A DNA stretch of 24,000 nucleotides. It comes from Oceanobacillus neutriphilus. GTDB lineage: Bacteria; Bacillota; Bacilli; Bacillales; Amphibacillaceae. Location of the stretch: positions 334,805 to 358,804 of the forward strand of contig NZ_BMLW01000004.1 of assembly GCF_014645515.1 (NCBI RefSeq), given 5' to 3'. Positions 17,386 to 23,853 of this stretch are shown here, piece by piece. Within the stretch, counting starts at the first letter, position 1. Every line of letters begins with the position of its first letter. The notes under the pieces are model-generated. The model did no database searches. It saw only the letters and a program-made list of their open reading frames with translations, and had not been told where the DNA came from. Position numbers and translations under genes: made by a program.

Positions 17386-17733
17386 ATTAATTATATCCTC
17401 TCATGTGTAATACTTCTTAAAATGGGTATTAATTCTATAGGCAGATTTTTTCAGCAGCTTAATTAGGTATTCATGCATACAGTTGTTTGTATGCTGAACT
17501 AACCTAAGGAATGGTCTGAAAATAGACAGTAGATGCTCTCTCTATAAAAAAGCATACATAGAACTTCAGTAAAAAAGATCACTATCTTACCGAAAAAATC
17601 TCTATACACTTTATTTTAAATTGAAGCTATTTGACTTACAATAAGATATATTGAAAGGGACACGTATGACAAATGAAGGCTACGTATGACATAATAGATT
17701 TATTTGAAGAATGTAACTAAAGTGGGTGTGGAA

Positions 17734-19497
17734 ATGATAAAAATTTTGTTAATAGCACCGTATACCGGAATGACACAGGTTGTTAAGCAATTAGATATTC
17801 CAAAGGATTTTCAACTGGACATAAAGGTAGCAAACCTGGAGGAATCTATCTCGCTCGCAAGGAAAGCAGAAGATGAAGGATATGATTTAATTATCAGTCG
17901 TGGCGGGACGGCAAGTCTAGTAGAGAAGAATGTTTCGATCCCTGTTATACATATTGATATTACAGGGTATGATATGCTGCGCGTTTTTACATTGATACGG
18001 GGCGCGCAAAATACCGTCGCTTTTATCGGATTTGAAAATATATGTCGTGGTGCAAGAACTCTGAATGATATATTGGACTATGACGTAAAAATGTTCACCA
18101 TTCATAAACGTGATGAGGTACGATTATTATTAAATAAACTAAAAAATGAAAATTACGAAATTGTAATTGGAGATGTAGTGACCGTTGAAGAGGCTCAAAA
18201 AATCGGTTTGCGTGGTTTTTTAATTACATCTGGTAAAGAGGCTATTTTTGATGCGTTTGATGAGGCAAGAAGAACATATCATATGTTTCAAAAAGTTTCT
18301 TATAAAACAGATCAATATCAGCAAATCCTCCAATCCCTACCAACAGATATCATTGTTATTAACCAGCAGGAGAAAGTTCTTTTCAATAACCTTTCCCCGA
18401 ATAAAGAAAGAATAGTAAAGAAATTGCTCTATGATAAAGAATTGGGAAAGAACATTCATCAGGCTCTGTCACTAAATGAAAAACAATGGGCACATATAAG
18501 CTCAGAGAATGAGGATTTTGAGTTACAAATATTCCCTGTTACAAGCAGAGAAACTAAGCTAGCCGGGATACATTTATGTTCATACAAAAGGAAAGATGAA
18601 TCAGCAGCATTTCGCATGATAACAAAAAAGATACATCAGCCTATCCTTGGTGGCAGCACCTATGCCCAAAGTATTAAAAATAAAATATATGCGTTTGCAA
18701 ATACAACTGATAACTTGTTTATTTCAGGTGAATTTGGAACAGGTAAAATGACCATCGCCCAATCGATTCACTTTCAAAAATTTGAAAGCAATCACCCTTT
18801 ATTTATTTTGAACTGTGAAATCATAGATTCTGATGATCTGAAAACTCTAAAAGACAGGTGGGTTTCTGTTCAAAAAGGAACAGCAATTTTTGAACATGTT
18901 GAAAGTTTATCACCGACAAATCAAAAGCTTCTGATTGAGCTGTTTCATCAAATTCCGGAATCCTTACAACTCATTTTTTTAGCCAATGAACAAGCATCAT
19001 CCTTAATAGAGAAGAAACATATTTTTGTCTCATTAATTGAAAAAATCGATCCGATTTTTATTCATACACAGCCTTTACGCAATCGAAAAGAGGATCTAAG
19101 AGAATTTATCTCTTACTATTTATCCGAATTCCACACCAGATTCGGCAACGAAACGTTAGGAATTCGTTCGGATGCGCTAGAAATACTTATGCGCTTAGAC
19201 TGGCCGGGAAATTTGGTTGAATTAAAAAAGAAAATTCGGGAATTAAGTCTTCGTGCCGTCGGATATTATATTGAAAACAAAGACGTGAAAGAAATTTTAC
19301 ATGAAGACGCATTGAAAGAACAAAATAAGCCTCTTGAAAATAAAGGCTTCTATATTCCACCTGGTTTGACTTTAGAGGAAATGGAGCAAAGAATTATCCA
19401 AAAGGTGTTAGAAGAGGAAAAAGAGAACCAAACACGTACCGCCAAAAGACTGGGAATGAATCGTACAACTTTATGGAGAAAATTAAATGATAAATAA
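17734..19497 (+). CDS. PrpR_N-domain / PAS-like / degenerate AAA+ (sigma-54-interaction-like) / Fis-type HTH transcriptional regulator
   Basis: N-terminus MIKILLIAPYTGM..ISRGGTA..IPVIHIDITGYD matches the PrpR N-terminal sensor domain. The central region has a GEFGTGK Walker A, PLRNRKEDL and WPGN. The C-terminus NQTRTAKRLGMNRTTLWRKL is an HTH_8. The GAFTGA loop is absent. The start is placed at ATG 17734 rather than TTG 17704 because the homologous domain begins there, but the RBS is weak. Confidence 0.8.
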   Translation: MIKILLIAPYTGMTQVVKQLDIPKDFQLDIKVANLEESISLARKAEDEGYDLIISRGGTASLVEKNVSIPVIHIDITGYDMLRVFTLIRGAQNTVAFIGFENICRGARTLNDILDYDVKMFTIHKRDEVRLLLNKLKNENYEIVIGDVVTVEEAQKIGLRGFLITSGKEAIFDAFDEARRTYHMFQKVSYKTDQYQQILQSLPTDIIVINQQEKVLFNNLSPNKERIVKKLLYDKELGKNIHQALSLNEKQWAHISSENEDFELQIFPVTSRETKLAGIHLCSYKRKDESAAFRMITKKIHQPILGGSTYAQSIKNKIYAFANTTDNLFISGEFGTGKMTIAQSIHFQKFESNHPLFILNCEIIDSDDLKTLKDRWVSVQKGTAIFEHVESLSPTNQKLLIELFHQIPESLQLIFLANEQASSLIEKKHIFVSLIEKIDPIFIHTQPLRNRKEDLREFISYYLSEFHTRFGNETLGIRSDALEILMRLDWPGNLVELKKKIRELSLRAVGYYIENKDVKEILHEDALKEQNKPLENKGFYIPPGLTLEEMEQRIIQKVLEEEKENQTRTAKRLGMNRTTLWRKLNDK

Positions 19498-19512: not shown

Positions 19513-19574
19513 AATACCGTACATGCCACCAACCTTTTTATGAATAGGTTTGGTAGCATGTATGGTATTTTTTT
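19513..19574 (+). terminator. Rho-independent terminator after the regulator gene
   Basis: About 23-bp stem (19513-19535 with 19546-19569; one mismatch, one bulge, one G-U pair), 10-nt loop, T-run to 19574. Confidence 0.8.
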
Positions 19575-19592
19575 CAAAAACAGCAAGCTTAG

Positions 19593-19611
19593 TTGTTTCA
19601 TAATGAAACAA
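19593..19611. promoter_or_regulatory. Palindromic operator/UAS candidate 1: TTGTTTC-ATAAT-GAAACAA
   Basis: Perfect 7-N5-7 inverted repeat (perfect over 9+1+9) in the regulator-kdgT intergenic region. Same half-sites and spacing as the site at 19716-19734. Confidence 0.6.
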
Positions 19612-19657
19612 ATAAACGAATATCGGTATTTAATATGTACAAACTTCAAAATAATTG

Positions 19658-19686
19658 TTGCTTTTTTATTCATTTAGTATTATTAT
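19658..19686 (+). promoter_or_regulatory. Candidate sigma-A promoter of the kdgT/kinase/pdxA2 operon
   Basis: TTGCTT (19658-19663), 17-nt spacer, TATTAT (19681-19686). No TGGCAC-N5-TTGCW element found in this intergenic region. Confidence 0.4.
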
Positions 19687-19715
19687 TTTAATTGCAAACG
19701 CTTCACTTCATTTTA

Positions 19716-19734
19716 TTGTTTCAATAAGAAACAA
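19716..19734. promoter_or_regulatory. Palindromic operator candidate 2: TTGTTTC-AATAA-GAAACAA
   Basis: Perfect 7-N5-7 inverted repeat (8-N5-8 counting flanking A/T), between the candidate -10 and the GGGGGAG RBS of kdgT. Its centre is 123 bp from the centre of site 1. Confidence 0.6.
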
Positions 19735-19762
19735 TAAACTATTATACAAGGGGGGAGAAAGA

Positions 19763-20755
19763 ATGAAGATAAAAGCAACAATCGAAAAGATCCCTGGGGG
19801 AATGATGGTTGTACCGTTGTTGATTGCTGCAACATTAAATACTTTCGCACCGGATTTATTAAGAATTGGTAACTTTACACAGGCTTTGTTTGTAGACGGT
19901 TCCAGCACTTTGATTGCATTGTTCTTATTATTTACCGGGGCACAAATTAACGTAAAAAATGTAGGGGTAAGCCTGGGCAAAGGAGCAACTTTATTAGCTA
20001 CAAAATGGGTAGTAGGTGCACTTGTTGGATTACTGGCATTTTCGATGATGGGCGATAATGGACTGTGGCTTGGTCTGGCTCCAATCGCAATTATTGCTGC
20101 TATGACAAACAGTAATGGCGGTCTCTATGTAGCACTCGTAGGACAATACGGAGATAAGACAGATCGTGCAGCTTATTCTTTATTAGCATTAAATGATGGT
20201 CCCTTTTTAACCATGGTAGCATTGTCAATATTTGGTGTCATGGGATTTGTTGAAGGGATGTTCTCTTTCGTTTCCTTCCTGTCTGTATTACTGCCAATTC
20301 TAGTCGGTATGATTTTGGGTAATTTAGATGAAGACTTGAGAGAATTTTTCCAATCAGGAAGTTCCGTACTTATTCCATTCTTCGCTTTTGCGTTAGGTAT
20401 GGGTATTGATTTTTCTAGCATCATTGAAGGCGGGTTAGGCGGCGTGATTTTAGGCTTGTTAACAGTGTTCGTGACTGGTACAGCCGGGTATTTCATCTTT
20501 AAAGCAATGAAATGGAATCCAATCGCTGGTGCTGCGGAAGGGTCTACTGCTGGAAATGCGGTAGCTACACCAATGGCAATTGCTTCTGCAGGTCCTGCCT
20601 TTTCAGCTAATGTAGAGTTAGCGACTGTTCAAGTTGCTGCAGCAGTTGTTACAACAGCAATTCTACTGCCATTTTACGTAGGGTTTCTAGTAAAACGGCT
20701 AGAGAAAAAAGGCATCAAGGTTCCTGACCATTATATAAAAGTAAATGAAAAATGA
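19763..20755 (+). CDS. kdgT: KdgT-family (2-keto-3-deoxygluconate permease family) acid-sugar transporter
   Basis: The N-terminus MKIKATIEKIPGGMMVVPL.. and motifs SNGGLY, LNDGPF, LIPFFAFALG and STAGNAVATP match B. subtilis KdgT as I recall it. GGGGGAG RBS upstream of ATG 19763. The 36 codons the ORF track adds from 19655 cover the promoter/operator region. Confidence 0.85.
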   Translation: MKIKATIEKIPGGMMVVPLLIAATLNTFAPDLLRIGNFTQALFVDGSSTLIALFLLFTGAQINVKNVGVSLGKGATLLATKWVVGALVGLLAFSMMGDNGLWLGLAPIAIIAAMTNSNGGLYVALVGQYGDKTDRAAYSLLALNDGPFLTMVALSIFGVMGFVEGMFSFVSFLSVLLPILVGMILGNLDEDLREFFQSGSSVLIPFFAFALGMGIDFSSIIEGGLGGVILGLLTVFVTGTAGYFIFKAMKWNPIAGAAEGSTAGNAVATPMAIASAGPAFSANVELATVQVAAAVVTTAILLPFYVGFLVKRLEKKGIKVPDHYIKVNEK

Positions 20756-20781
20756 TTGAGATAGTAAAGTAGGTGTTATAA

Positions 20782-22080
20782 TTGGTGAAACAAATCGCTA
20801 TAATTGCAGATGATTTAACTGGAGCAAATGATAGCGGCATTCAATTAACAGAAAAAGGAATTAATACTTCTGTTCTATTTGAAATTCCAAAACAGATGAA
20901 TCTTCTCAGCGAAGGTGTCGTAATAGATACAAATTCAAGAGCATTATCAAGAGAAAAAGCAATATCCATCACAATGAAATCAGCGAAATTTATCAAAGAT
21001 CTTCATTATAATCATGTCTATAAAAAAATGGATTCGACACTTAGAGGTCATATCGGCCACGAGCTGCAAGCAATGAGCAGTGTATTGAATCCAGAATTTC
21101 TTGTAATTGCTCCGGCGTTTCCTGGTATGGAGCGGGTGACAAAACATGGGTATCACTATGTCCATGGACAATTAATTGCAGAGACAGAAATTGCAAAAGA
21201 TCCAACTCACCCTGTGACAGAGTCCTATATTCCTGCCCTGATAGAGCAGCAAACAGGAGAACGAGTCGGACTGCTCACAAAAGAGGATTTACAAAGTGAT
21301 GAGCATTTCCAAAAAAAGCTAGCCATCTTGAAAGCAGATGAAATTAGAATGATTTGTTGTGATGCCGAAACAGAACAGGACTTAAAAGTGCTCACACATA
21401 AATTTTCAAAAGAAACGAACCGTATCATTTGGGCAGGATCTGCTGGACTGGCAGAAGTTCTCCCACAAGTATTAGGAATTGAAAAGAAAAAGCAACATAT
21501 TTCCTACAAACATTCTAGCGTAGCCATGACAGTGTGTGGCAGTTTATCTGAAAAAACACAGGCACAAATTCGTTATGCAATCCAGCAAAAAAATGTAGCA
21601 GGCATCGAGTTGAACCCGCTGCAAATGTTTCAGGCTGATTGGAAAACACAAAAAAAAGAATATAAAAATACATGTATAAAAATGATTACTCAAAATAAAG
21701 ACGTTGTCCTCTATGTGCCATCAAATGAAAATATTCGCACACAGGTAAAGGAATTAGGCAAGAAAAAAGGACTTTCCAATAATGAAATAGGAGAAACCAT
21801 TTCAGATAGAATTGCAGAATTGGTAGTAGGTGTTAAAAATCAGCTTCCGAATCTGAATCGTTTTGTCCTAACTGGCGGCGATACAGCGAAGTCCATTACA
21901 AAAAGTTTAGGAGCAGTCGGGATGCATCTTATTAAGCAGCTTGAGCCTGGTATTCCGTTAGTATCGTTAGTCGGCAAGGATGGAAGTCTGGTAGTGACAA
22001 AAGCTGGAGCATTTGGAAAAGAGGATTCTATTTATCATGCCATGCAGGAGTTGAAAGGAGAAGCGACGACATATGAGTAA
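20782..22080 (+). CDS. Four-carbon acid-sugar kinase (DUF1537 family; DtnK/DenK/OtnK-like)
   Basis: 432 aa. N-terminal IAIIADDLTGANDSG and C-terminal VLTGGDTAKS motifs of the DUF1537 kinase family. TTG 20782 (or GTG 20785) follows AGGTG. Overlaps the pdxA2 start by 8 nt. Confidence 0.85.
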   Translation: MVKQIAIIADDLTGANDSGIQLTEKGINTSVLFEIPKQMNLLSEGVVIDTNSRALSREKAISITMKSAKFIKDLHYNHVYKKMDSTLRGHIGHELQAMSSVLNPEFLVIAPAFPGMERVTKHGYHYVHGQLIAETEIAKDPTHPVTESYIPALIEQQTGERVGLLTKEDLQSDEHFQKKLAILKADEIRMICCDAETEQDLKVLTHKFSKETNRIIWAGSAGLAEVLPQVLGIEKKKQHISYKHSSVAMTVCGSLSEKTQAQIRYAIQQKNVAGIELNPLQMFQADWKTQKKEYKNTCIKMITQNKDVVLYVPSNENIRTQVKELGKKKGLSNNEIGETISDRIAELVVGVKNQLPNLNRFVLTGGDTAKSITKSLGAVGMHLIKQLEPGIPLVSLVGKDGSLVVTKAGAFGKEDSIYHAMQELKGEATTYE

Positions 22081-23068
22081 AAAACCGATTATAGGTATAA
22101 CCATGGGAGACGCGGCGGGTGTAGGCCCCGAAGTAATCGTTAAAAGTCTGCAGAAACCAGAAATTTATCAGAATGCACATCCCATTGTTATTGGTGATGC
22201 TAAAATATTACAACGTGCTGCCAAAGATTTAAACTTGGAAGTATCCATTAGCAAAAAAAGAAGTCATGATGATTTAACACAAACGTCATATGGTGAAATT
22301 GCCTGTGTGGATCTAGATCTTATTCCTGAAGATTTAACTGTAGGAAAAGTATCCCCGATAGCTGGTGATGCAGCATTTCAATATTTGCAGACAGCAATTC
22401 AATTAGCCAATGAAAATAAAATCCAAGCAATTTGTACAGCACCATTAAATAAAGAAGCACTGCAAAAAGGCGGACACATGTATCCTGGACATACGGAAAT
22501 TCTTGCTGATTTAACAAACACAGAGGATTTCTCCATGATGCTGTCTTCACCAAAATTAAAGGTGATTCACGTTACAACGCATATTGGTTTATTGGATGCC
22601 ATCCAAAAGATTAAACCGGAACGTGTATTCAATGTGATAAAATTAGCGGATAAAACATTAAAAGGTTCAGGAATCGAACAGCCCAAAATAGGTGTTTGCG
22701 GAATCAATCCACATGCCGGAGAAAATGGCCTTTTCGGTTATGGTGAAGAAGAGGAAAAAATTATTCCGGCTGTTCATTTAGCAAAAGAACAAGATATCGA
22801 TGTAGAAGGTCCTTTACCGGCAGATACCTTATTCTTCCGAGCTCAGCGCGGGGACTTTGACATCGTTGTTGCCATGTATCATGATCAGGGCCATGGTCCA
22901 ATAAAAGTACTTGGTTTGGAAGCCGGCGTAAATATAACGGTTGGTCTGCCAATAATACGTACTAGTGTTGACCATGGAACTGCATTTGATATAGCAGGTA
23001 AAGGAATAGTAGATGAAGGAAGCATGTTGGAAGCACTAAGACAAGCTATTGAACTGGCACCGAAGTAA
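22073..23068 (+). CDS. pdxA2: PdxA-family NAD-dependent dehydrogenase, PdxA2-type (4-phospho-D-threonate/erythronate dehydrogenase-like)
   Basis: 331 aa. PdxA motifs ITMGDAAGVGPEV, PGHTEILA, MYHDQGHGPIK, RTSVDHGTAFDIAGKG. Genomic pairing with a DUF1537 kinase. Confidence 0.85.
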   Translation: MSKKPIIGITMGDAAGVGPEVIVKSLQKPEIYQNAHPIVIGDAKILQRAAKDLNLEVSISKKRSHDDLTQTSYGEIACVDLDLIPEDLTVGKVSPIAGDAAFQYLQTAIQLANENKIQAICTAPLNKEALQKGGHMYPGHTEILADLTNTEDFSMMLSSPKLKVIHVTTHIGLLDAIQKIKPERVFNVIKLADKTLKGSGIEQPKIGVCGINPHAGENGLFGYGEEEEKIIPAVHLAKEQDIDVEGPLPADTLFFRAQRGDFDIVVAMYHDQGHGPIKVLGLEAGVNITVGLPIIRTSVDHGTAFDIAGKGIVDEGSMLEALRQAIELAPK

Positions 23069-23205: not shown

Positions 23206-23853
23206 CTATTCATCCAAGTTATAATGATAGTCCTTCTGAAAATCAATATTCTCACCAACTCTTGAAAGTAAATACATTTTATAAGCAACATAAGCATTAT
23301 ATTCAATTCTTTCAACCATATCGTATGCTTTCTCCAGCGACTTATCTGCCACCACCAGGCCATGTCTTTCTAATAATAGTCCGGCAGGTATTTTATCTGC
23401 ATCCCGTTCTGCAATTGTTTCTCTCACTAAAGCCGCTAATTCTGGAGAAGTTGCCGGTCGATAGTCTAAACATGGAATATCACCGATTTTTTGAGTAGCC
23501 TCTGTTATATTTGGCATATCTTTCCCCATACTCGCCCAAACCATGGATTCTTTTGCGTGCGCATGAATAACACAGTTAATGGCAGGATTCTCTTCATAAC
23601 AAGCCATGTGCATATTGATTTCTCTTGTCAGTCTTCCTTCACCCTCAATAATATTTAATTCCTTATCTACTACTAAAATTTGAAATGGACTTAAATCACA
23701 ACGGTAGTTTTGAGACATTAAAGTAGGCGTCATAATAAAATGTTCATCACTAACCTTTAAACTGAGATTTCCACCGGCTGCATTCGTTTGAAATCGATCA
23801 AACATAGTCTTTACAATCTCACACATTTTCTTTCTCTCTTCTGAATATAGCAT
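23206..23853 (-). CDS. Class II aldolase/adducin-domain protein (FucA/AraD/OtnC-like; specificity unknown)
   Basis: 215 aa. Motifs NAAGGNLS, E..MH, the VIHAHA metal-binding histidines, and LLERHGLVV. GAGGTG RBS. Its start overlaps the stop of the upstream gene (TAATG). Confidence 0.8.
   Translation of the reverse strand: MLYSEERKKMCEIVKTMFDRFQTNAAGGNLSLKVSDEHFIMTPTLMSQNYRCDLSPFQILVVDKELNIIEGEGRLTREINMHMACYEENPAINCVIHAHAKESMVWASMGKDMPNITEATQKIGDIPCLDYRPATSPELAALVRETIAERDADKIPAGLLLERHGLVVADKSLEKAYDMVERIEYNAYVAYKMYLLSRVGENIDFQKDYHYNLDE

What the first reader, a model, noticed from the sequence alone, without database searches (positions are those of the whole stretch)
19593..19734. Two identical-architecture palindromes TTGTTTC-N5-GAAACAA bracketing the kdgT promoter
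Within a 265-bp intergenic region, two perfect inverted repeats share the same 7-nt half-site and 5-nt AT spacer. These are TTGTTTC-ATAAT-GAAACAA (19593-19611) and TTGTTTC-AATAA-GAAACAA (19716-19734), with centres 123 bp apart. One lies upstream and one downstream of the best sigma-A-like promoter (TTGCTT-17-TATTAT, 19658-19686). The downstream site sits between the -10 and the RBS. A 7-N5-7 dyad is the geometry used by dimeric Fis-type HTH domains of NtrC-family proteins, so the adjacent regulator is the obvious candidate binder. The bracketing arrangement suggests looping or repression, or a switch between repression and activation, rather than classical enhancer action. The downstream dyad could alternatively act as an RNA hairpin in the leader.
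Basis: seen in the sequence. Interest (0 to 1): 0.6.

Follow-up and report, generated by a model that had tools for sequence, protein, structure and literature searches.

The report
Phased operator array at kdgT promoter
The two perfect palindromes are real, genome-unique binding sites that, with a weaker third site over the -35 box, form a conserved, evenly spaced (about 62 bp) operator array. It most likely lets the neighbouring sigma-54-independent "relic" enhancer-binding protein control an ordinary promoter of a four-carbon acid-sugar operon.

Summary
Observation confirmed. TTGTTTC-N5-GAAACAA occurs exactly twice in the 5.44 Mb Oceanobacillus genome, both times here (about 0.06 expected).

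The two dyads belong to a larger conserved design found in 48 orthologous regulator-kdgT loci across about 19 genera:
- O1: 19593-19611, about -91 from the predicted start.
- O2: 19655-19673, weak. Its left half TGTTGC contains the -35 box.
- -10 box: 19681-19686.
- A cre-like box: 19693-19706.
- O3: 19716-19734, about +33.

O1-O2 and O2-O3 are each 60-65 bp in most loci, and most exceptions differ by about one helical turn.

In most genera a fourth operator lies between the regulator's own -10 box and its ribosome-binding site, a position that implies autorepression. It has decayed in this genome.

A matrix built only from relatives has window O1 as its exact consensus. It ranks O1 and O3 first and second in the genome.

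The regulator has a PrpR_N sensor, an AAA+ domain without GAFTGA or Walker B, and a conserved HTH_8 domain. No -24/-12 promoter exists in any of the 48 intergenic regions, so classical enhancer action is excluded.

Best reading: cooperative, TyrR-like strong/weak-box repression of a sigma-A promoter, relieved by a pathway metabolite, with probable CcpA control on top. Binding and its sign are untested. The RNA-hairpin alternative is not supported.

The parts
17666..17695 (+). Predicted sigma-A promoter of the regulator gene: -35 ATGACA (17666-17671), 18-nt spacer, extended -10 TGaCATAAT (17687-17695)
   Evidence: Best promoter-like hit of the scan, 10 of 12 with TG. The same ATGACA ... TGnCATAAT/TGTAATAAT layout is present upstream of orthologous regulators.
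17701..17719 (.). Decayed autoregulatory operator (OR relic), TATTTGAAGAATGTAACTA. It matches 13 of 19 positions of the relatives' OR, TTGTTGAAATATGCAACAA, and the invariant G3 is lost
   Evidence: OR scores at least 14 bits in 34 of 44 orthologous loci, between the regulator's -10 box and its RBS. The window copy scores -7.0 with the independent PWM.
17734..19497 (+). Regulator gene: PrpR_N sensor, degenerate AAA+ domain (no GAFTGA loop, no Walker B DE) and Fis-type HTH_8. An upstream TTG at 17704 is an alternative start
   Evidence: Pfam domains. A 16-residue gap replaces the ESELFGHEKGAFTGAD segment in the alignment to ZraR 1ojl. Of 47 orthologues, none has GAFTGA, Walker A is kept, Walker B is not, and the HTH helix INRsTLWRKL is kept.
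19514..19575 (+). Intrinsic terminator of the regulator gene: a long hairpin followed by a U-run
   Evidence: RNA fold -33.4 kcal/mol, z = -7.6. It separates the regulator transcript from the kdgT promoter.
19593..19611 (.). Operator O1 (strong), TTGTTTCATAATGAAACAA, centred at about -91 from the predicted start
   Evidence: Identical to the consensus of 82 sites from other genomes; 25.8 bits, best hit in the genome. Conserved position in 39 of 44 loci at 14 bits or more. Invariant columns in alignment A1.
19655..19673 (.). Operator O2 (weak), TTGTTGCTTTTTTATTCAT, centred at about -29. Its left half-site TGTTGC embeds the -35 hexamer TTGCTT (19658-19663)
   Evidence: GTTGC is invariant in 20 of 20 aligned loci. 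In other genera O2 reads ATGTTGCATTTTATATCAA and scores 13-20 bits. O2 right halves lie far above those of 3327 genomic TGTTGC sites (Mann-Whitney p = 5e-20). It lies 62 bp from O1 and 61 bp from O3.
19681..19686 (+). -10 hexamer TATTAT of the kdgT promoter, 17-nt spacer from the -35 box. Predicted start near 19693
   Evidence: TAnnAT columns are invariant in A1.
19693..19706 (.). cre-like box TGCAAACGCTTCAC (TGAAAACGCTTTA in most relatives) over the predicted start; probable CcpA site
   Evidence: TG.AA.CG.TT is invariant in A1. It starts 38 nt after the O2 start in 34 of 44 loci. A CcpA orthologue is present at 493 bits against a cut-off of 442. The right arm lacks the canonical C13, so the assignment is tentative.
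19716..19734 (.). Operator O3 (strong), TTGTTTCAATAAGAAACAA, centred at about +33, between the cre-like box and the RBS
   Evidence: 20.4 bits, second-best hit in the genome. At least 14 bits in 37 of 44 loci; O2-O3 is 60-65 bp in 35 of 37 loci.
19748..19757 (+). Ribosome-binding site AAGGGGGGAG of kdgT
   Evidence: Read from the sequence. The GG..GA columns are invariant in A1.
19763..23068 (+). Target operon: kdgT-family permease (19763-20755), DUF1537 four-carbon acid-sugar kinase (20782-22080) and PdxA2-type dehydrogenase (22073-23068)
   Evidence: Pfam KdgT, SBD_N+NBD_C and PdxA. The regulator-kdgT-DUF1537 order is conserved in the orthologous loci.

Best explanation
The two perfect dyads are the strong operators (O1, O3) of a conserved three-operator array. 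The likely binder is the protein of the adjacent gene. That protein descends from sigma-54 enhancer-binding proteins and keeps its PrpR_N ligand-sensing domain, a nucleotide-binding but catalytically dead AAA+ domain, and a highly conserved Fis-type HTH.

Each dyad (consensus TTGTTkm-AwwAT-kmAACAA, invariant G-N13-C) would take one HTH dimer. The three dyads are centred at about -91, -29 and +33 of an ordinary sigma-A promoter. They are about 62 bp apart, roughly six helical turns, so they face the same side of the DNA.

Proposed mechanism:
- Dimers on the strong outer sites cooperate, through AAA+/PrpR_N contacts, possibly as one trimer of dimers.
- This loads the weak central site that overlaps the -35 box, bending or wrapping about 125 bp and shutting the promoter.
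- A pathway metabolite sensed by PrpR_N (a four-carbon acid sugar or its phosphate) breaks the assembly and induces kdgT-DUF1537-pdxA2.
- A cre-like box at the start site adds probable CcpA catabolite repression.

Shown here: the sites exist, are genome-unique, and are conserved in sequence, position and spacing. The same motif occupies a repressor position in the regulator's own promoter in relatives. There is no sigma-54 promoter and no GAFTGA loop.

Inferred: who binds, cooperativity, stoichiometry, the sign of regulation, and the inducer.
For: - Uniqueness: the exact pattern occurs twice in 5.44 Mb, both times here.
- An independent PWM from 82 sites of other genomes has window O1 as its exact consensus. 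It ranks O1 and O3 first and second genome-wide. The next hits are single sites inside ORFs.
- Conservation: regulator-kdgT synteny and the O1/O2/O3 layout hold in 44-48 loci from about 19 genera, with regulators down to 28% identity.
- In alignment A1 only the operators, the -35 and -10 boxes, the cre-like box and the RBS are invariant.
- Spacing: O1-O2 is 60-65 bp in 32 of 41 loci and O2-O3 is 60-65 bp in 35 of 37. Outliers are 40, 50-51 and 72-74 bp.
- Link to the regulator: across 157 kb of loci, 73 hits of at least 14 bits fall in 8.4 kb of regulator-kdgT intergenic DNA. All 22 hits outside are at the regulator's own promoter.
- The HTH helix is conserved although overall identity is about 40%. 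Every kdgT orthologue of at least 73% identity is beside the regulator or separated from it only by a contig break.
- Distant paralogues next to DHDPS-family genes keep the motif. Site pairs are exactly 62 bp apart in L076, L077, L079 and L083.
- Sigma-54 independence: the GAFTGA segment is deleted, none of 47 orthologues has it, and no GG-N10-GC promoter exists in any of 48 intergenic regions. Yet rpoN and 18 exact -24/-12 motifs exist elsewhere in the genome.
- Repression: O2 overlaps the -35 box, O3 lies downstream of the start, and OR of relatives lies over the regulator's own start. The promoter has a near-consensus spacing and -10 box and an A-rich upstream tract.
Against: - There is no binding, expression or start-site data.
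- O2 in this genome is weak (4.5-7.6 bits), and part of its conservation could simply reflect the -35 box.
- Helical phasing of the spacing outliers is only suggestive. By my count about 8 of 11 independent deviations are in phase, against roughly 48% expected; values of 54 and 65 bp also occur.
- Relatives are not independent samples.
- Known sigma-54-independent EBP relatives (DhaR, VpsR, TyrR at some promoters) act as activators.
- No regulator-less operon was found that could reveal the sign of control.
- A hexamer is not demonstrated.
Confidence: 0.65

Rival explanations
1. The same protein binds the same sites but acts mainly as a ligand-dependent activator of the sigma-A promoter. It would work from O1 (about -91, a class I-type position), as DhaR, VpsR or TyrR do at activated promoters. 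O2 and O3 would serve anti-activation or fine tuning.
For: The regulator descends from activators. Sigma-54-independent relatives are often activators (named from established knowledge; VpsR abstract listed). O1 is the best site and lies upstream of the promoter. The operon is never found without the regulator, which fits an essential activator as well.
Against: Two of the three sites sit where bound protein blocks RNA polymerase: over the -35 box and spacer, and at +33. The relatives' OR site over the regulator's own start is a pure repressor position. The core promoter looks competent on its own: TTGCAx, 17-nt spacer, TAnnAT, and an A-rich upstream tract.
Confidence: 0.2
2. The dyads are operators for a different transcription factor encoded elsewhere, and the adjacency to the PrpR_N regulator is coincidental.
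For: No direct binding data. AT-rich TGTT/AACA dyads are not chemically unusual.
Against: The motif is confined to this locus in the genome. It follows the regulator gene through about 19 genera and into paralogous systems with other target genes. It also occupies the regulator's own promoter. No other regulator gene is conserved in the cluster.
Confidence: 0.07
3. The downstream dyad (O3) acts as an RNA hairpin in the kdgT leader, affecting stability, attenuation or RBS access, rather than as a DNA site.
For: In this genome the leader folds with the O3 stem: -13.2 kcal/mol for 19693-19775, z = -2.9. O3 sites are somewhat more palindromic than O1 sites, 5.7 versus 4.7 of 7 pairs.
Against: The same motif occurs at O1 and OR, outside the kdgT transcript. 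O3 19-mers of relatives fold weakly, mean -2.1 kcal/mol, and only 6 of 25 are perfect. No U-run follows the stem and the RBS lies outside it. No Rfam family matches.
Confidence: 0.05
4. Classical enhancer: the dyads are upstream activating sequences from which the regulator activates a sigma-54 promoter.
For: Pfam files the protein under sigma-54 interaction domains. The genome encodes sigma-54.
Against: No GG-N10-GC element with 3 or fewer mismatches exists in any of 48 intergenic regions. The GAFTGA loop is deleted and Walker B lost in all 47 orthologues. One site lies downstream of the promoter.
Confidence: 0.02

Closest known systems
TyrR boxes of E. coli and Enterobacter TyrR (strong/weak box system)
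   Same: The binder is an EBP-like protein that works with the housekeeping sigma factor. The sites are AT-rich dyads with an invariant G...C pair. Strong sites recruit protein to a weak site that overlaps the promoter, and oligomerisation from dimer to hexamer is used for repression (PMC4374768). TyrR autoregulation is cited from established knowledge.
   Different: The half-site and geometry differ: TGTAAA-N6-TTTACA with G-N14-C versus TTGTTkm-N5-kmAACAA with G-N13-C. The sensor is ACT/PAS rather than PrpR_N. TyrR boxes are usually adjacent, not about 62 bp apart. TyrR runs a multi-operon regulon, whereas this is a single local operon. This system is in Firmicutes, not Proteobacteria.
E. coli DhaR / dhaKLM
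   Same: A sigma-70-dependent descendant of enhancer-binding proteins controlling an adjacent small-carbohydrate operon, with autorepression (established knowledge; named as closest known for the protein by earlier finding e1-2491680).
   Different: DhaR has GAF/PAS sensors and is switched by the DhaK and DhaL proteins. It is described as an activator. I could not retrieve its operator layout for comparison.
PrpR (Salmonella/E. coli) and its enhancer
   Same: The same N-terminal PrpR_N sensor family (2pju and 2q5c hits) and a Fis-type HTH binding dyads next to the controlled catabolic operon.
   Different: PrpR is a true sigma-54 activator with GAFTGA, an active ATPase and a -24/-12 promoter. 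All three features were tested here and are absent.
NtrC-type enhancers
   Same: A 7-N5-7-like dyad geometry for HTH_8 dimers, with several dyads used to assemble an oligomer.
   Different: NtrC sites lie well upstream of a sigma-54 promoter and act through ATP-driven remodelling. Here the sites straddle a sigma-A promoter.
Multi-operator repression loops (LacI, GalR, DeoR)
   Same: Strong outer operators flank the promoter, cooperate through protein oligomers, and require same-face spacing.
   Different: The protein families are unrelated. Here three evenly spaced dyads (62 + 62 bp) would match the three HTH dimers expected of an AAA+ hexamer.

Membership tests
Sigma-54 enhancer (UAS) system | -24/-12 promoter (TGGCAC-N5-TTGCW) downstream of the sites | tested here: not met
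   The best match in the window intergenic region has 4 mismatches and lacks GG/GC. None of 48 orthologous intergenic regions has GG-N10-GC with 3 or fewer mismatches. The genome has 18 exact motifs elsewhere.
Sigma-54 enhancer (UAS) system | Binder carries the GAFTGA sigma-54 contact loop and a catalytic Walker B | tested here: not met
   A 16-residue gap sits at the GAFTGA segment in the alignment to ZraR. None of 47 orthologues has G[AS][FY][TS]GA, and Walker B DE is not conserved.
Sigma-54 enhancer (UAS) system | Organism encodes sigma-54 | tested here: met
   Sigma54_DBD match at 160.5 bits on contig C1. The absence of a -24/-12 promoter is therefore not due to absence of the sigma factor.
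TyrR-box type operators | Consensus TGTAAA-N6-TTTACA with invariant G-N14-C | tested here: not met
   The consensus of 82 sites is TTGTTTCATAATGAAACAA with G3 and C17 invariant, giving G-N13-C. TyrR definition taken from PMC4374768.
TyrR-box type operators | Strong box or boxes plus a weak box overlapping core promoter elements | tested here: met
   O1 scores 25.8 and O3 20.4 bits, against 4.5-7.6 bits for O2, which contains the -35 box. This is met at sequence level only; occupancy is untested.
TyrR-box type operators | Binder is a sigma-54-independent EBP homologue with ACT/PAS sensor domains | tested here: not met
   The protein is sigma-54-independent and EBP-like, but its sensor is PrpR_N (189 bits), not ACT/PAS.
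Local transcription-factor operator with autoregulation (comparative-genomics criteria) | Motif conserved upstream of orthologous target genes and of the regulator gene itself, and rare elsewhere | tested here: met
   The autoregulatory site is present in 34 of 44 loci but decayed in the window.
Local transcription-factor operator with autoregulation (comparative-genomics criteria) | Direct binding of the regulator to the sites | not testable with these tools
   Needs EMSA or footprinting.
cre / CcpA site (for the 19693-19706 box) | Match to the cre consensus TGWAARCGYTWWCA / WTGNAANCGNWNNCW (consensus from established knowledge) | tested here: inconclusive
   By my count against the remembered consensus, the window box TGCAAACGCTTCAC matches 10 of 14 positions. 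The relatives' TGAAAACGCTTTA(C/T) matches 12 of 14 with a perfect left arm but lacks the canonical C13.
cre / CcpA site (for the 19693-19706 box) | CcpA orthologue present | tested here: met
   TIGR01481 match at 493.2 bits against a cut-off of 442.35.
Structured leader RNA / riboswitch | Match to a curated RNA family, or a conserved stable structure | tested here: not met
   Rfam returns only spurious miRNA hits on the terminator hairpin. O3 hairpins of relatives average -2.1 kcal/mol.

The most novel reading that the evidence does not exclude
The whole family of PrpR_N / dead-AAA+ / HTH_8 regulators of Bacillaceae may share a fixed 'DNA grammar': dyads TTGTTnn-N5-nnAACAA set about 62 bp apart. 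One ring-shaped trimer of dimers (a hexamer that may still bind but no longer hydrolyses nucleotide) would engage three dyads at once. It would wrap about 125 bp of a sigma-A promoter into a small repressosome that a sugar-acid ligand dissolves. That would be an enhancer-binding ATPase turned into a static DNA-wrapping repressor. The recurrence of 62-bp pairs in distant paralogues that control DHDPS-type aldolase operons would then reflect protein geometry rather than promoter history.
Probability: 0.3. Interest if true: 0.7.

Novelty: new variant of a known kind. Interest (0 to 1): 0.5.

Why it matters
This gives a concrete, testable operator and promoter map for a widespread regulator family that annotation pipelines label "sigma-54-dependent". 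The family evidently works on housekeeping-sigma promoters. The map assigns the family a 20.7-bit motif and a one-operon regulon for four-carbon acid-sugar use.

It also shows an unusual, evenly spaced three-dyad layout. If that layout reflects a hexamer wrapping the promoter, it would show how an ATP-driven activator scaffold can evolve into a passive cooperative repressor.

Practically, the array is a compact candidate metabolite-inducible switch for Bacillus-type hosts. It also warns against inferring sigma-54 regulons from domain hits alone.

Tried and rejected
- Sigma-54 promoter search: nothing in the window or in 48 relatives, so the enhancer reading is rejected.
- Regulon expansion: the next-best PWM hits (20.0, 19.3 and 18.4 bits) are isolated sites inside ORFs. 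The regulon is taken as local.
- Autoregulation in this genome: no site of 7 bits or more lies upstream of the regulator in the window. Only a 13-of-19 relic remains.
- RNA readings: the leader hairpin is not conserved in strength, and Rfam gives only spurious hits.
- Phyletic test of activator versus repressor: I looked for operons lacking the regulator. None was found, since kdgT orthologues always sit beside the regulator, so the test was uninformative.
- Literature: searches for DUF1537/PdxA2 regulators, threonate/erythronate plus KdgT, PrpR_N without GAFTGA, and the half-site letters found no description of this operator. DhaR operator details could not be retrieved.
- The search for related loci with the single protein returned only two close relatives. 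The genome search gave the wider sampling.
- My first automatic cre/O2 assignment mis-anchored five loci. It was redone with stricter anchoring, and four loci were still left out for lack of an anchor.
- PadR-type (ATGT-N8-ACAT) and Rex-type (TTGTGAA-N4-TTCACAA) motifs, recalled from memory, were considered and rejected because the spacing and half-sites differ.

Full report
**Observation.** The window reads TTGTTTC-ATAAT-GAAACAA at 19593-19611 and TTGTTTC-AATAA-GAAACAA at 19716-19734, exactly as reported. The centres are 123 bp apart. Both lie in the 265-bp gap between the stop of a regulator gene (19497) and the kdgT ATG (19763).
- At up to 2 mismatches the window gives 4 matches against 0.19 expected; no shuffle reached 4.
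- In the whole 5.44 Mb assembly the exact pattern occurs twice, both here. From base composition I estimate about 0.06 expected.

**Genes.** Pfam assignments:
- 17704/17734-19497: PrpR_N + Sigma54_activ_2 (only a partial Sigma54_activat match) + AAA_lid_14 + HTH_8.
- 19763-20755: KdgT permease.
- 20782-22080: DUF1537-type kinase (SBD_N + NBD_C).
- 22073-23068: PdxA family.
- 23206-23853, opposite strand: a class II aldolase.

The regulator aligned to ZraR shows a 16-residue gap exactly where ESELFGHEKGAFTGAD lies. A strong terminator (19514-19575, -33.4 kcal/mol, z = -7.6) ends the regulator transcript, so kdgT needs its own promoter. The closest named genome is Oceanobacillus sojae (99% identity).

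**Comparative evidence.** Full-length homologues of the regulator occur in 63 of 246 genomes of the GTDB family, in 19 of 57 genera. In 48 fetched loci the gene order regulator-kdgT is kept. Regulator identity runs from 99% down to 28%, while KdgT stays at 66-100%.

A 19-bp matrix trained iteratively on the intergenic regions found up to three sites per locus, not two: O1 at about -155 to -165 from the kdgT ATG, O2 at about -94 to -101, and O3 at about -32 to -39.

To avoid circularity I rebuilt the matrix from 82 unique sites of relatives only, leaving out all O2 sites and the two nearest genomes.
- Its consensus is TTGTTTCATAATGAAACAA, identical to window O1.
- G3 and C17 are invariant (G-N13-C); total information is 20.7 bits.
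- With it, O1 (25.8 bits) and O3 (20.4) are the two best sites in the genome.
- The following hits (20.0, 19.3, 18.4) are lone sites inside ORFs.

**Phylogenetic footprint.** In a 20-locus alignment (A1) the spacers are unconserved. The invariant columns fall only in these elements:
- O1.
- GTTGC, window 19657-19661, part of the -35 box.
- TAnnAT, window 19681-19686, the -10 box.
- TG.AA.CG.TT, window 19693-19703.
- O3.
- The RBS and the ATG.

The central site O2 (window 19655-19673, TTGTTGCTTTTTTATTCAT) is weak here, at 4.5-7.6 bits. In many genera it reads ATGTTGCATTTTATATCAA and scores 13-20 bits. O2 right halves score far above those of 3327 genomic TGTTGC occurrences (Mann-Whitney p = 5e-20). 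O2 is therefore more than a -35 box.

**Spacing.**
- O1-O2 is 60-65 bp in 32 of 41 loci. The exceptions are 40 (three loci), 50-51 (three), 54 (one) and 72 (two), plus 74 in L006.
- O2-O3 is 60-65 bp in 35 of 37 loci.
- O1-O3 is 122-128 bp in 28 of 34 loci.

Most outliers differ from 62 by one or two helical turns. Counted as independent events this is only suggestive: by my count about 8 of 11 are in phase, against roughly 48% expected. Values of 54 and 65 bp also exist, and related genomes are not independent.

**A fourth site.** Scanning whole loci (157 kb) gave 73 hits of at least 14 bits inside 8.4 kb of regulator-kdgT intergenic DNA, and 22 outside. All 22 lie at one place, between the regulator's own extended -10 box (TGnCATAAT or TGTAATAAT) and its RBS. 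That is over the regulator's start site, a repressor position.
- This site, OR, scores at least 14 bits in 34 of 44 loci.
- In the window it has decayed: 17701-17719 is TATTTGAAGAATGTAACTA, 13 of 19 matches, G3 lost, -7.0 bits.

The motif therefore travels with the regulator gene on both of its flanks. Together with the conserved recognition helix INRsTLWRKL, this is the main argument that the neighbouring protein is the binder.

**Sigma-54 independence.**
- The genome encodes sigma-54 and has 18 exact TGGCAY-N5-TTGCW motifs elsewhere.
- No GG-N10-GC element with 3 or fewer mismatches exists in any of the 48 intergenic regions.
- None of 47 orthologous regulators has a GAFTGA-like motif.
- Walker A (GE.GTGK) is conserved, while Walker B DE is neither present nor conserved.

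An earlier agent reached the same view of the protein (e1-2491680). I re-derived it independently.

**Generality.** More distant paralogues (27-37% identity) sit next to DUF1537 genes, DHDPS-family genes or a Zn-dehydrogenase.
- They keep the same motif, and most of the DHDPS-type ones keep an OR-like site at -18 to -24 from the regulator ATG.
- Site pairs are 62 bp apart in L076, L077, L079 and L083, 121 bp in L081, 51 bp in L084 and 90 bp in L012.
- In the DUF1537-type paralogues the upstream site and the site over the -35 box are about 50 bp apart.

**Mechanism.** Taking +1 as about 19693 (inferred from the -10 box), O1, O2 and O3 centre at about -91, -29 and +33.
- A site across the -35 box and spacer, and one at +33, are repressor positions, as is OR in relatives.
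- The promoter itself looks competent: TTGCAx, 17-nt spacer, TAnnAT, and an A-rich upstream tract.

I therefore favour cooperative repression. Strong outer sites would recruit protein to the weak promoter-overlapping site, as in the TyrR strong/weak-box system, where a hexamer forms on a strong box and reaches weak ones (PMC4374768). Three dyads equal six HTH domains, which is one AAA+ hexamer. The 62-bp period (about 6 turns at 10.3 bp per turn) would put all three sites on one face. This stoichiometry is inference only.

The PrpR_N domain presumably senses a pathway metabolite. The DUF1537 + PdxA2 pair points to D-threonate or D-erythronate type substrates (established knowledge of the DUF1537 pathway work). 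An activator mode cannot be excluded: no operon without the regulator was found, and no expression data could be consulted.

**cre-like box.** TGCAAACGCTTCAC at 19693-19706 (TGAAAACGCTTTA in most relatives) starts 38 nt after the O2 start in 34 of 44 loci. It is also present in the paralogous systems. A CcpA orthologue exists. The left arm is a perfect cre half, but the right arm lacks the canonical C13, so I rate a CcpA site as probable, not established.

**RNA alternative.** The window's leader folds through the O3 stem (-13.2 kcal/mol, z = -2.9). Against an RNA role:
- O3 19-mers in relatives average only -2.1 kcal/mol.
- The same motif occurs at non-transcribed O1 and at OR.
- Rfam finds nothing real.

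The hairpin is a by-product of a DNA palindrome.

**Novelty.** Searches found no description of this operator or of the regulation of this operon type in Firmicutes. The Clostridiales sigma-54 regulon study lists PrpR_N-containing EBPs and a kdgT-uxaA regulator, but as sigma-54 systems (PMC6615313). In kind this is a local operator set for a TyrR/DhaR-like sigma-54-independent EBP relative. The evenly spaced three-dyad array, recurring in paralogous systems, is the unusual part. I rate it a new variant of a known kind, of moderate interest.

Noticed in passing
window 17701-17719 (compare L046, L050, L054 and others, just upstream of the regulator ATG): Most genera carry a strong autoregulatory operator (TTGTTGAAATATGCAACAA) between the regulator's -10 box and its RBS. 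In the Oceanobacillus sojae/locisalsi clade (window, L002, L003, L035, L036) it has decayed, while O1 and O3 in the window and its nearest relative L002 are perfect palindromes. This suggests lineage-specific loss of autorepression.
   Followed up: partly
window 19693-19706: A cre-like box (TGCAAACGCTTCAC; TGAAAACGCTTTA in relatives) sits at a fixed 38 nt from the O2 start, over the predicted transcription start. It is also conserved in the paralogous systems. It is probably a CcpA site, but it lacks the canonical C13.
   Followed up: partly
L012, L076, L077, L079, L083 (DHDPS-family neighbour); L084 (Zn-dehydrogenase neighbour): Distant paralogues of the regulator (27-33% identity) control other genes but use the same dyad motif. 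Site pairs are exactly 62 bp apart in four of these loci, which hints at a family-wide spacing rule.
   Followed up: partly
L009-L011, L073-L075 (regulator followed directly by DUF1537, no kdgT): A second paralogous system has sites TTGATGCAwAATACAACA and ATATTGCTAAATGCAACG (the latter over the -35 box) about 50 bp apart. G008 carries both systems with near-identical motifs (L007 and L073), which raises the question of cross-talk.
   Followed up: no
window 17734-19497 versus 19763-20755, and loci L004-L071: Across genera the KdgT permease stays 77-90% identical while the adjacent regulator drops to 38-48%. Despite this, the regulator's HTH helix and DNA motif stay nearly fixed.
   Followed up: partly
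L072 (G233:C1:3271618-3276198): The regulator homologue here is truncated (matches residues 5-533 and contains a TGA) and has no kdgT next to it. The only kdgT-like gene of that genome is 56% identical and lies elsewhere. This looks like a decaying copy.
   Followed up: no
window 19640-19657 and A1 columns about 60-76: An A-rich tract lies directly upstream of the -35 box in nearly all loci (consensus AAAAAnTnnAAAAAAA). It resembles an UP element and suggests an intrinsically strong promoter.
   Followed up: no
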